A stretch of 64,000 nucleotides of DNA from Octopus vulgaris (taxonomy: Eukaryota). Both the position numbers and the translations under genes were made by a program. The notes beneath the pieces are model-generated. The model worked only from the letters and a program-made list of their open reading frames with translations. It was not told the origin of the DNA and searched no databases. Each line of letters begins with the position of its first letter. Position 1 is the first letter of the stretch. The DNA is taken from NCBI GenBank assembly GCA_951406725.2, contig OX597831.1:14880001-14944000 (forward strand), read 5' to 3'. Of this stretch, positions 4,076 through 62,794 are shown in pieces.

Positions 4076-5171
4076 TTTGTGAATCAGACAAAATGCTTAG
4101 TAGCATTTACTTCAGCTTTTTACTCAAATACCACCGAGGCCATCGTTGCCTTTCATCCTTTCGGTGTCGATAAAATTAAATACCAACCAAGTAGTGGCAT
4201 CAGTGTGAACGCTTACCCATTCGCGCTAACATTCCCTGGGCATGTACCGAACTTAGAAACACCCATTTCTATATATAACATTATGAATATGTTTGGCCAA
4301 GGTGATGAAGCATTACAATGGATTTTCTAATCAATCCAATTATCTTTTTGAAAACACTGCACTAGGAAGCACCATTTGAAGATTGCCATTCCGTCTAGTG
4401 ATTCCTAGTAGTTAACGGACAAAGAATAGAGATACAGAGTATAATCGATCAGACTAGGCATGTAAGAGTGTGTGTGTGCTTTGTTTTCGTCAAAACAGGA
4501 CTAAGGAAAGCAACGGGTTACAACATTGGGATGTGAAATCAGAACGTAATGAATTCTGAGCCGCCACTCCAAGCTAAATAACAAATTTCTGAACACAAAA
4601 CTGAAATAGATAACGGAGTAAAGTTAAGCAGAAAGTAGTGCCAAGCGAGAGACGAGAACCGTAGATATTATCTCATCTGCTGGAATTCACATAAACCATT
4701 CATCCCTGTACACAGTACAGCCATTTATATTACAAGATTTCCCCCCGGCTTCGTGACAAACATTAACGCTTAGGCCATTAATAACGGCAATTTTATCAGC
4801 TATAAACCTATAATTTTATCGGTTTTACTAATGCGAAAATCTTGTTAGATATTGTATTTAATTTTTTTTTATGCAGAAAGATACTTTATTCAGAATCGGT
4901 GGTTTAATTAATTTCCAAGAGGAATTGGTTAACATTAAATCTTAGTTATTAATCCAGATAGAATTGCATTTCGCTGTTATGTGAGAACACAGGAGGTGCA
5001 CACATACATGTATACAACTTGTGTGCTTGTGTGTAAGAAGTGTAGTTGAACTGGTCAATAATTTAAATGACAGTAAATTTCCTATCACCGGCATTATAGT
5101 AACGTCTCATGGTCTTCGAACATTCATTTTGTCTGGTTTAGTATGCCGCTATATATATATATATATATATA

Positions 5172-5720
5172 TGTGGGTGTATATACAAAATTTAGAGGAA
5201 TGACCACTAATAGTGGACAGCCTATATGCTAGAAATATACGTCAAACTCGCCATTTACCACGAAGAATGTGTTCTCAAGAAAAAATTCAGCAAAAAACCA
5301 AAGCGTAAAAATAAGCAAGACAAATGAAAATATACGAAATCAAAAACGATTACCTATATACTAATTAGTTTCACTTGTTAATATTTATGTATATGGATAC
5401 GCAAACATCTGCAAGATCGTCAGCATAGTCTGTCGTTTACGAAATACAATTTCTAGAACTAGATACAGGGCGCTCGACCGAAATCCAGCATTGTATAAAG
5501 TTCCACAAATTATATTTATGTGTATCCTTCAAATGCCTTCACTTTGGCGCCCTGAGATCGGAAATTACTCTGCAGTTAATAAACTACAGCAGTTAATAAA
5601 CTACAGCAGTTAATTTACCGGCTAGAGAACATTTTTTATTTAAAATTAAATAAAGGTAGAAGTTGATATTAATCAATTAAAACCAGTGGCCTTGCATATT
5701 TAAAAAAAAATCCGAAGATT
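5172..5720 (-). mobile_element. Short non-coding hammerhead-bearing element (pLTR/retrozyme-like) between (TA)n tracts
   Basis: About 550 bp with no ORF, bounded by (TA)n on both sides, and containing the hammerhead motif at 5352-5430. Its 3' part (TTCTT.GTGGT...TATTTCTAGC...GTCCAC) resembles the element at 62266-62680. Confidence 0.55.
5352..5430 (-). ncRNA. Type I hammerhead ribozyme motif
   Basis: Minus strand: CTATG-CTGACGA-TCTTG..CAAGT-GAAA-CTAATTAG-TA-TATAG. Stem I CTATG/TATAG, stem II CTTG/CAAG, palindromic stem III, GUA triplet. Confidence 0.7.
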
Positions 5721-5727
5721 TTAATTT

Positions 5728-30821: not shown

Positions 30822-32113
30822 GACCTTATAATAGAAGGACTTAGATTCATTTTAGAGAACAATTATTTTATTTTTGACAATGATTTCTACAGGCAAAGAT
30901 CGGGAACAGCGATGGGCACGCGTACTGCACCATCTTTTGCCAACCTAGTGATGGGATACCTCGAGAAAATACTATACCGGATGGCACTCGAGAAATATGG
31001 AAACACCTTCGCCACCTATATCCATAACAACTGGAAAAGATACCTCGATGACTGTTTCATCATCTGGGACAAAGGTATAGAGAAATTTGAGGAATTTAAA
31101 ATACTATTAAATGGAATAAATGACAATATACAATTCACGATGGACCACAACGAAAAAGAATTACCATTTTTAGACATCCTCATTAAGAAAACCGGCAACA
31201 AAATAGAGACAGATATCTACTATAAACCGACAGACTCTAAACAGTACCTACCCTTTGATTCATGCCACCCACGACACACTAGAATGAATGTCCCTTTTTG
31301 TTTAGCTAGAAGGATTTGCACCATAATATCAGACACAAACACCCGACACACACGTCTCCAGGAACTTAGAACCACACTCACAAATAGAAACTATCCACAG
31401 CCCCTAATAGACAGTGCAATCCAACGGGTACTTAAATTAAGTATAGAAGACCTGAGACAAACAAAACCAAAAAAGAAAGAACAATTAAAAACCCTTCCCT
31501 ACATTTCTACACACAACCCACTCAACAATGAGGCCTTCAACACCATACTACAAAGCACAGCCCTACTAAAGGGAGACCCAAAGATGAACCGGATCCTCGA
31601 AACGCACACCATCATTAAAAGTAACGGCAACCAAAATCCTTGAAAAGGATTTTAACCCAAGCTACACTGCACTCAACATCAACCACAAAACCAGCAGTTA
31701 GAAAATGTGGAAGGCCCAACTGCGGAATCTGTGTCATCTTGAAAGAAGGATCAGAATTTATACTGGAACAAGGCCACCAGTTCACCATTAGAACAAACTT
31801 CACCTGCGCATCAGAAAACTTAATTTACGTCATAACATGCGCAGGCTGCAATAGGCAGTATATAGGCCATACAAAAAATAGCTTACGTAACAGGATGGCG
31901 GTGCATAAATCACAAATTAGAAACCCTGATTACCGCAAAATACCGGTCAGCGGACACATAGATAGATGTGCTGGAAATGTAAATCCGAAATTTACAACTA
32001 ACCCGCTCTATAAATTCAGTGACAACGCAACCTTCACACAACGCCAAAATAAAGAACTATATTTCATAAAAAAATTTAGACCAAGTTTAAACACCCTGGG
32101 CCAGGAATACTAA
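30822..32113 (+). pseudogene. PLE reverse transcriptase plus GIY-YIG endonuclease, one frameshift at ~31625
   Basis: ILENNYFIF..YRQRSGTAMGTRTAPSFANL, WKRYLDDCF, LPFLDI, YYKPTDSKQYL..SCHP, linker CGRPNCGIC, NLIYVITCAGCNRQYIGHT..RMAVH..SGH. Restoring one base at about 31625 gives IIKSxRQPKSLKRILT and joins the two listed ORFs. Confidence 0.92.
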
Positions 32114-32274
32114 AACAAAAGATAAGTCCTCCGAAAAGGAGAAGCAAAATTCCACCACGACCGCTACTTCAAACAGACACTCACTCTGACGGAAATATAC
32201 CTAAGTAAAAAAGCGAAAAAATTCTTTCGTGCAAATCTGACCCTGATACATACGATACAGCTAAGGGTCAGACC

Positions 32275-32745
32275 CGATTCTGATTGGTCAACAAGTTGAT
32301 GACGTCTAGCACAGCTAGAATGGACAGGATACAAACAGGGGACAGTCATTAGTCAGAATATTGATGACGTCCTTTTCTGCTTGAATAGTCACCTAACAAG
32401 TACAGACAGGGGGCAGATCTAATGTAACTATAAGTCGTGATTGGGCAGAATCTGCATGACGTCCCGTTCTGCTTGACTAACGAAGCGACTGGTCAGGACA
32501 GGAAACAAACAAGAGGCAGTTATAATGCAGCGATTGGTCAAAATAATGATGACGTCCCGTTCTACTTGACTAACGAAGCGACTGGTCAAAACAGGAAAAC
32601 AAAGAGGCAGTTATAATGCAGCGATTGGTCAAAATAATGATGACGTCCCGTTCTACTTGACTAAAGCCACCTAACGAAATGATTGGTCAAAACGTTGATG
32701 ACGTCACGCTACGCTGAATTGACCACCTAACAGGCATTATAAAAC
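32275..32745 (+). promoter_or_regulatory. Tandem ~60-90-bp repeats with inverted CCAAT and CRE-like sites, then a TATA box (putative PLE promoter)
   Basis: GATTGGTCA..GATGACGTC recurs about six times. A full TGACGTCA is at about 32699 and TATAAAA at about 32738. Confidence 0.5.
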
Positions 32746-33194
32746 CGAACACTTCACAAAAACTCATTAGAACCACCCAGCGAACATCCACCATGGGTCA
32801 TCACATTTGCTTAAGGTAAAAATGAATTCCTCGCTCTTTCGGAAACATCAATCTTCTGTATTGACCGCTTTCCACCACTTTGATCTGTTTTTTGTATTGA
32901 ATACGTATCGCCACACCGTGGGCCACTGCATCGAACACTTTGAACATATACTTCAAACTATATATCAACTATACATGAACTATATATCAACTATACATGA
33001 ACTCTAAGATGTCTGACTCCGTTGTGTATTATAAATGAATTTCTTGTGTTTGACGGCATGAGCTGTCTTTTTTTATATATAACTTTTTTTGATAAAGTTC
33101 ATTTCAGGAACTGAAACATGTTATAATGTATATATACAAAAATTTTATATATAAAAATTTACAAATATATACCTACTCGTATACGAGCTAATCC

Positions 33195-33266
<72 letters not shown>

Positions 33267-61479: not shown

Positions 61480-61510
<31 letters not shown>

Positions 61511-61651
61511 CACAAATAAGGGCAAACGAAAAAATTTCTAATGCCAAATATGCCGAAAAATTGGACATATTGTCTATTAACAATATAATGTTTTCACAAT
61601 ACGCACGCTACTCGAAAAAAGGTCGACAGAAATTTCTAAAAAATTCCATTA

Positions 61652-61711
61652 TTACCATATCGGACCTATTTCAGGGTTAGCTCATAAGAGCCCTCCCTTC
61701 GTCAGTGATAA
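61652..61711 (-). ncRNA. Type I hammerhead ribozyme motif
   Basis: TTATCA-CTGACGA-AGGG-AG-GGCTC-TTAT-GAGCT-AA-CCCT-GAAA-TAGGTCCGA-TA-TGGTAA. Stem I TTATCA/TGGTAA. Confidence 0.7.
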
Positions 61712-61896
61712 ACGTGGCAAAAGAAATAAATGAGATACTTACTCGCACCCATGGAAGAAGCAAACACTAAGTTATGAGCACAATTAATTACCCCAAATAC
61801 ATCCAAAATAGAAATACTCTAGTCCATTCGAGACACGTGCGATTTGAACTGAGGCCCTCACAGAGTGAGAGAATCCGGAAGTGAACGCTTAAATTT

Positions 61897-62219
61897 ATAT
61901 CTAATGTAGGATAAAATTTTTTTCGAAAAAAAATTCTTTTCGAAAAAAGTTTTATCAATGGCCAGCATATTAAAAAATACCTTTAAAGGTTAAATTTATA
62001 AACAATTCATAAATAAGGGCAAACGAAAAAATTTCTAATGCCAAATATGCCGGAAAATTCTCCATTAACTATATAATTGTCCATTAACCAAATAACTTTT
62101 TACAATACGCACGCCACTCGAAAAAAGGTCGATAAATTTAAAGGTATTTTTTAATATGCTGGTCATTGATAAAACTTTTTTCGAAAAGAATTTTTTTTCG
62201 AAAAAATTTATCCTACATT

Positions 62220-62226
<7 letters not shown>
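61897..62226. repeat. Inverted repeat (~90-bp arms) enclosing a partial copy of the 61507 element
   Basis: TCTAATGTAGGATAAA..TTCGAAAA..ATCAATGGCCAGCATATTAAAAAATACCTTTAAA, with its reverse complement at 62137-62226. Confidence 0.85.
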
Positions 62227-62268
<42 letters not shown>

Positions 62269-62392
62269 GACGCTCTTGCGCTAAAAATAGATCCACAATG
62301 GTCTCAACCACCAAGAATTGTTCCCAAGCAGAGTTAGCTCAACTATGAACGTAAACGAGCAGGACAAATGAAAAATAACAAAAATGTAGATT

Positions 62393-62471
62393 AATTCTAG
62401 ACAATTGTTTCACTGTTAATGGATTATGCAAGGTTACTTACATAATATATCTACAGCTCATCAGTAGAATT
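62393..62471 (-). ncRNA. Canonical type I hammerhead ribozyme (best example in the window)
   Basis: AATTCTA-CTGATGA-GCTGT..ATTATGTAAG-TAAC-CTTGCATAAT..ACAGT-GAAA-CAATTG-TC-TAGAATT. 7-bp stem I, intact core, palindromic stem III, GUC triplet. Confidence 0.85.
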
Positions 62472-62731
62472 CGTCATGAATATAATTTACTGAACCGCAC
62501 GCCAGATTTTAACATAAAGCGTGGTTCAGTCTATTATATTCGCAGTTATGATTCGAATGCCCTGGACCCTCTCTTATATTTGTGTATTCATTTTTAGTGT
62601 ATCCCGGTTTTTATGCGCTAAACCACTTGGTTTTACATTGATGTTATTAAATTAATATCCAATTTATTCACTCTCATTTTTGATTTTATATATATATATA
62701 TATACATACATATATATATTTATATATATAT

Positions 62732-62794
<63 letters not shown>

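What the first reader, a model, noticed from the sequence alone, without database searches (positions are those of the whole stretch)
62266..62680. Textbook GUC hammerhead with an upstream accessory hairpin in a ~410-bp (TA)n-flanked element
All core nucleotides are present, with a 7-bp stem I, a bipartite stem II (5 bp plus 10 bp) and a CAATTG palindrome. Predicted cleavage is between 62400 and 62399 on the minus strand. Just upstream is a second long hairpin (62477-62540; GAATATAAT..ACTGAACC..ACGC pairing with GCGT.GGTTCAGT..ATTATATTC). Element size matches retrozyme monomers. This is the best candidate for experimental testing.
Basis: partly seen in the sequence, partly recalled or inferred. 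Interest (0 to 1): 0.72.

Follow-up and report, generated by a model that had tools for sequence, protein, structure and literature searches.

The report
Two-armed Penelope-type hammerhead retrozyme insertion
This is one broken, two-armed copy of a small non-coding repeat that carries a predicted self-cutting RNA motif and a conserved hairpin, and was likely pasted into TA microsatellites by a Penelope-type jumping-gene enzyme; it is a new member of a known class, not a complete unit.

Summary
The type I hammerhead and the upstream hairpin are real; the predicted cut at 62400|62399 is right. But the ~420-bp insert is not a retrozyme monomer. It is two head-to-head pieces (unit 1-314 and 316-451) of a ~506-bp non-coding repeat with at least 74 dispersed loci. 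Family 3' ends fall at two fixed sites about 105 nt apart (96 of 117 segments), mostly running into (TA)n. Two-armed insertions pair one site with the other in 19 of 21 cases. This is the Penelope 'tail' footprint, and coding Neptune-type Penelope elements in this genome show it too. Hairpin and hammerhead stems covary within the family and across two diverged sister families. The window copy has a private 11-nt deletion, a G-U pair at the stem II base, a 2-bp stem III and only one ribozyme, so it is a poor test candidate. RNA-like contigs match another copy, probably in a host 3' UTR. Cleavage, circles and the partner enzyme are not shown. The scan reported the same class and footprint for other families in this genome. 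Verdict: new member of a known kind.

The parts
62222..62265 (.). (TA)n target, left flank
62266..62563 (-). Arm 1: unit positions 1-314 of the ~506-bp repeat. Its 3' end faces left into (TA)n, at the CCACATA hairpin loop about 25 nt short of the common end site A
62393..62471 (-). Type I hammerhead: 7-bp stem I, extended stem II, 2-bp stem III with palindromic loop; predicted cut 62400|62399
62401..62408 (-). 8-nt palindrome (A15.1 to U16.1) able to form an intermolecular stem III; CAATTG kept in 62 of 70 copies
62478..62541 (-). Upstream hairpin (9-bp + 8-bp stems), compensated across subfamilies and three families; this copy has a private 11-nt deletion behind 62520
62563..62686 (+). Arm 2: inverted piece, unit positions 316 to ~441-451 (the 'tail' between sites A and B). 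Its 3' end faces right into (TA)n at site B
62687..62794 (.). (TA)n target, right flank

Best explanation
The insert is a 5'-truncated, two-armed genomic copy of a ~506-nt non-coding hammerhead repeat (an animal non-LTR retrozyme) that was likely reverse-transcribed into a cut (TA)n site by a Neptune-type Penelope-like enzyme acting in trans. Shown: dispersed family, partial tandem and inverted arrangement, two fixed 3' end sites, TA targets, compensated stems, no ORF. Inferred: both DNA ends at the break primed copying of the same or a near-identical RNA at two internal sites (A and B, ~105 nt apart), giving head-to-head arms. The template was a circle or an uncut multimer, because most copies read through the cut site. 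The ribozyme likely works as a dimer or with protein help to cut multimeric transcripts into units. The upstream hairpin is likely a selected RNA element (enzyme binding or folding). Genomic copies, this one included, decay neutrally; selection acted on the source RNA.
For: Unit period 506 in tandem loci. 74 distinct loci among the 108 family loci fetched, 117 segments: 56 end at site A and 40 at site B; (TA)n lies within 40 nt beyond 84 of these 96 ends; 5' ends are scattered. Of 34 inverted pairs, 21 have both ends at A or B, and 19 of these are A+B (permutation p=2.5e-4). 74 of 95 A/B-ended segments run past the cut site and 27 exceed one unit; overlapping parts within a locus are closer than the median other locus in 46 of 48 cases, and 13 of 48 share a variant seen in at most one other locus. 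Coding RT+GIY-YIG elements with a C-x4-C-xx-C linker (16 of 150 scored hits have a 781-aa open frame; Pfam) end in (TA)n at two sites 32-38 nt apart, and L141 has one arm of each kind. This matches the PLE footprint in PMC8557442 and PMC11167929. Structure: 94.6% of cells paired versus 28-40% when slid; 100 double-change cells versus 3-31. Across three families 21 of 39 consensus pairs change on both sides. Private substitution rates are equal in core, stems and loops (1.6, 1.3, 1.7%), but shared variants number 1 in 12 core columns versus 40 in 86 and 45 in 104 (0 in 12 after removing pattern-found rows).
Against: No convincing sequence link to any of 50 PLE loci (one weak 60-nt nhmmer hit, E 0.007, not followed), so the partner enzyme is inferred from the footprint only. 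5' ends are not enriched at the cut site (3 of 117 versus 4.9 expected), so in-vivo cleavage is not shown. Within-locus identity beats the best other locus in only 13 of 48 cases, so a single-circle template is not separated from a subfamily multimer. The number of pairs with a double change (10) does not exceed shuffles (8.6; 145 of 500). Subfamily linkage alone yields 520 apparent double-change column pairs. The window copy's own arm 1 ends at unit 314, not at site A.
Confidence: 0.72

Rival explanations
1. The repeat is the terminal repeat (pLTR) of a coding Penelope-like element not sampled here, and these loci are its 5'-truncated insertions.
For: Same footprint as coding PLEs. Only 150 of 6136 GIY-YIG candidates were scored and 50 loci read. 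The 2026 preprint finds 24 of 57 Xenopus retrozyme families similar to known TEs, nearly all PLE termini.
Against: Sequence upstream of the ribozyme is the previous unit, never an ORF end: 27 segments run more than one full unit. PLE ORF pieces occur in only 4 of 142 loci searched; the one read (L105) is separated from the unit by (TA)n.
Confidence: 0.15
2. The 410-bp insert is itself a retrozyme monomer that self-cleaves and circularises.
For: Intact core in this copy; TA flanks on both sides.
Against: It is two opposite-strand pieces of a longer unit and has one ribozyme. The active monomer fold is 7.5 kcal/mol above the minimum. Contigs laid on it carry nine shared differences and, where covered, lack its deletion.
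Confidence: 0.03
3. The family spread as DNA (satellite or MITE-like), and the ribozyme and hairpin are passengers or by-products of inverted repeats.
For: Genomic copies decay neutrally.
Against: Fixed 3' and random 5' ends; compensated pairs across families 69% alike or less; no shared variants in the core.
Confidence: 0.05

Closest known systems
Metazoan non-LTR retrozymes (Cervera and de la Pena 2020, PMC7229834, passages seen; Li et al. 2026, bioRxiv 10.64898/2026.07.22.740005, parts 1-3 of 5 read)
   Same: Non-coding repeat with one type I hammerhead per unit, short palindromic helix III, partial tandems; proposed to be mobilised by PLEs. Axolotl HHR_Amex2 also has a weak pair at the base of helix II.
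   Different: Unit ~506 bp versus 220-390 bp in the 2020 paper (within 51-972 bp of the 2026 paper). Dispersed, at most ~1.7 units seen, not long arrays. Long extended stem II and a conserved upstream hairpin. No detected similarity to a pLTR. Circles not shown.
EN+ Penelope-like elements, Neptune type (Craig et al. 2021, PMC8557442, passages seen; Frangieh et al. 2024, PMC11167929, parts 1-2 of 4 read)
   Same: 5' truncation, partial tandems, inverted 5' copy, a tail at only one end, two reverse-transcription start sites, AT-rich or microsatellite target, hammerhead.
   Different: No ORF. Tail ~105 nt instead of 30-40 nt. One-site-per-arm pairing is counted here (19 of 21).
Dimer-type type I hammerheads of newt satellite and PLEs (Cervera and de la Pena 2014, PMC4209133, passages seen)
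   Same: 1-2 bp helix III with palindromic loop, expected to cut as a dimer.
   Different: Pair 10.1-11.1 is variable (G-C 28, G-U 20, unpaired 20 of 70) where that paper finds G-C highly conserved. Tertiary contacts not identified.

Membership tests
Type I hammerhead ribozyme | Core CUGANGA, GAAA and NUH triplet | tested here: met
   intact in 56 of 70 copies
Type I hammerhead ribozyme | Three helices with helix I open-ended | tested here: met
   7 bp, 5 bp plus extension, 2 bp; double changes in stems I and II
Type I hammerhead ribozyme | Helix I / helix II tertiary contact | not tested
   A conserved AA bulge beside stem II and AAU after stem I are seen in three families, but no contact was modelled
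Type I hammerhead ribozyme | Mg2+-dependent site-specific self-cleavage | not testable with these tools
   Needs a bench test; the monomer fold is predicted to be rare
Non-LTR retrozyme | Non-coding unit with a type I hammerhead, repeated in tandem | tested here: met
   506-bp period in L021 and L029; no PLE ORF continuous with the unit seen
Non-LTR retrozyme | At least two consecutive intact ribozymes (the 'active' criterion of Li et al. 2026) | tested here: inconclusive
   Met by L021; not met by the window copy
Non-LTR retrozyme | Expressed as unit-length linear and circular RNA | tested here: inconclusive
   Only assembled contigs were available; they fit read-through of another copy and cannot show circles
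EN+ Penelope-like element | 5' truncation, partial tandem and inverted copies, tail at one end, microsatellite target | tested here: met
EN+ Penelope-like element | RT + GIY-YIG open reading frame | tested here: not met
   None in the unit
EN+ Penelope-like element | Unit derived from the pLTR of a coding PLE | tested here: inconclusive
   No convincing similarity to 50 PLE loci, a small sample

The most novel reading that the evidence does not exclude
The hairpin-plus-hammerhead block is a conserved module of a lineage of cephalopod-type retrozymes that share no sequence with their helper. A dimeric Penelope enzyme copies one RNA circle from two structure-defined start sites ~105 nt apart, one per cut DNA end, which would explain the one-sided PLE tail. 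One copy may also have been kept, in sense orientation, in the 3' UTR of a chitin-binding-protein mRNA.
Probability: 0.3. Interest if true: 0.62.

Novelty: new member of a known kind. Interest (0 to 1): 0.4.

Why it matters
How animal retrozymes are copied into genomes is still a proposal; the 2026 preprint says the mechanism remains to be shown. This family gives countable footprints (two start sites, one per arm, read-through of the cut site) and sits beside intact candidate helper ORFs, so trans-mobilisation is testable in vitro. The compensated upstream hairpin is a concrete candidate for the enzyme-recognition signal. The single window copy matters little.

Tried and rejected
Rfam: no hit at gathering score in the window, and no hammerhead among 41 weak hits around the element. 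Search for the helper's terminal repeat: none among 50 PLE loci; the only colinear match was a neighbouring sister-family copy. Pattern CTGANGAGCTGYAGA gave 62 hits versus 10 for the control; these were not fetched. A pattern for the transcribed variant found only one locus. Enrichment of 5' ends at the cut site: none. Run search: no RNA holder listed on record; 21 of 24 rows were guessed RNA. Contigs showed no joint suggesting a circle, but contigs cannot show absence. Copy number from an exact 26-mer (44 hits, present in 19 of 58 BLAST-found rows) gives roughly 130 copies with the ribozyme part, a biased estimate. Target-site duplications could not be read inside (TA)n. Paper searches: octopus+Penelope+hammerhead listed 4 papers, none on this family by title or abstract start, two of them checked by passage; Penelope+twin priming+inverted+tail listed 1 review, not read; one search listed nothing relevant. 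Supplements were not read; those of the 2026 preprint (closed) could bear on novelty, though its four invertebrates are three insects and a coral. Sequence look-ups in earlier findings gave nothing for this unit or the sister unit.

Full report
Setting. The window is G000:C18:14880001-14944000 of a 2.8-Gb animal genome.

Observation. On the minus strand all hammerhead parts lie where stated: stem I 62471-62465 / 62399-62393, CTGATGA 62464-62458, stem II from 62457, GAAA 62411-62408, CAATTG, and GTC ending at 62400. A matching descriptor hits 0 of 150 shuffled windows. The upstream hairpin (62541-62478) folds with z -5.8. Rfam does not recognise either. The ribozyme is less textbook than claimed. 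Pair 10.1-11.1 is G-U, shared by 20 of 70 copies and so inherited. Stem III has 2 bp. The active monomer structure costs 7.5 kcal/mol over the minimum and appears in 0.07% of sampled folds, in a model without tertiary contacts, while the 8-nt palindrome gives a -6.4 kcal/mol homoduplex. That fits the dimer-type hammerheads of PMC4209133 (passages).

The element is not a monomer. A genome search returned 93 matches from 40 scored candidates; most split the query at position 124 into two strands. Tandem loci give a 506-bp unit. The window insert is unit 1-314 on minus and unit 316-451 on plus, head to head. Among 108 family loci fetched, 74 were distinct, with 117 segments. 56 end at site A (unit 326-346), 40 at site B (434-456) and 21 elsewhere; (TA)n follows 49 of 56, 35 of 40 and 7 of 21. 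5' ends are scattered. Of 34 inverted pairs, 13 have an end outside A/B (the window copy among them, at 314). Of the other 21, 19 join one A to one B (p=2.5e-4). Median identity between loci is 89%, and the window copy's nearest relatives are 95% alike.

Mechanism. These are the marks described for Penelope-like elements: truncation, partial tandems, inverted 5' copies and a tail at one end (PMC8557442), the tail being the stretch between two reverse-transcription start sites (PMC11167929). The genome holds RT+GIY-YIG elements with the Neptune/Nematis-type cysteine linker, 16 of 150 scored hits having a 781-aa open frame. Their ends fall in (TA)n at two sites: 7 short and 3 tailed of 10 terminal ends in one family, 2 and 3 of 5 in another, and L141 has one arm of each kind. 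No convincing sequence link between our unit and 50 such loci was found, so trans-mobilisation is inferred. 74 of 95 A/B-ended segments read through the cut site and 27 exceed one unit, so the template was a circle or an uncut multimer. Repeats within a locus are closer than the median other locus in 46 of 48 cases but beat the best other locus in only 13, which leaves circle versus multimer open. 5' ends do not pile up at the cut site.

Selection on RNA structure. On 70 copies, 44 pairs are 94.6% paired (slid controls 28-40%). Clean double changes occur at four hairpin pairs (8, 9, 26 and 9 copies), two stem I pairs (8, 7) and one stem II pair (33 A-U, 30 G-C). The count of such pairs does not exceed shuffles, and subfamily linkage produces 520 apparent double-change column pairs; still, 3 of the 4 lying in helices of 8 bp or more are in this hairpin. 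Private substitutions hit core, stems and loops alike, while shared variants avoid the core: copies decay, and source RNAs were selected. A younger 551-bp sister family (69% of aligned columns; score 335 versus 158+-11 shuffled) and a third relative in this window keep hairpin and ribozyme in the same order. Their joint fold, from 7 chosen sequences, recovers both, with 21 of 39 pairs doubly changed.

Expression. Contigs from four guessed-RNA runs of four studies lie on the element but differ from the window copy at up to nine shared places; L005 and L007 match 8 of the 9. Laid on L005, three such runs also cover unique flanks and break at one place. That place is a GT-AG splice to an exon ~2.2 kb away, and the last exon encodes a chitin-binding domain. 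The L005 copy lies ~650 nt past the stop, in sense. No single contig bridges exon and element, so a 3' UTR location is inferred. Contigs cross the cut site, so uncut RNA is present. Nothing indicates that the window copy is transcribed.

Comparison and verdict. It works like an animal non-LTR retrozyme (PMC7229834, passages) moved by a PLE, as proposed in bioRxiv 10.64898/2026.07.22.740005; in that study only 1 of 9 tested dimers cleaved. It is not a PLE proper (no ORF). Circles and cleavage are untested. Earlier notes of this scan reached the same class and two-site footprint for 360-nt and 491-nt families; I wrote my Penelope reading before that look-up and tested the footprint here on this family. 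New member of a known kind; interest 0.4.

Noticed in passing
window 5170-5727, minus: TA-flanked ~550-nt relative of this family (nhmmer E 5e-5) with the same upstream hairpin and a hammerhead whose stem III holds a different palindrome.
   Followed up: partly
window 61508-62221: A separate TA-flanked, partly inverted hammerhead-bearing repeat (core at 61705, minus) directly beside the finding; a similar copy follows the PLE in L140.
   Followed up: no
window 30822-33200, plus: 5'-truncated young Neptune-type PLE, 99% identical in protein to the 781-aa frame of L139, ending in the tail and (TA)n.
   Followed up: partly
L005:1476-1816 (G000:C30, ~12.975 Mb): Family copy with intact core in sense orientation ~650 nt downstream of the stop of a spliced chitin-binding (CBM_14) gene; RNA-like contigs cover it and its flanks, and in three runs carry A-U instead of G-U at pair 10.1-11.1.
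   Followed up: partly
L159-L183 (e.g. L175:1209-1760): Younger sister family (~95% alike among the best hits, 551-bp unit) with the same two end sites, TA targets and a non-palindromic stem III.
   Followed up: partly
L139 and L140, terminal repeat of the 781-aa PLE: A hammerhead-like motif with U3 and A8 in place of C3 and G8 and a palindromic stem III, read by eye.
   Followed up: no
window 44546, plus: Weak hammerhead-descriptor hit (stems 4/4/1), not examined.
   Followed up: no
G000:C18 16.79-16.94 Mb (L021, L073, L081, L083): Four family loci within 150 kb, three sharing variants and partly flanks; possibly local duplication.
   Followed up: no
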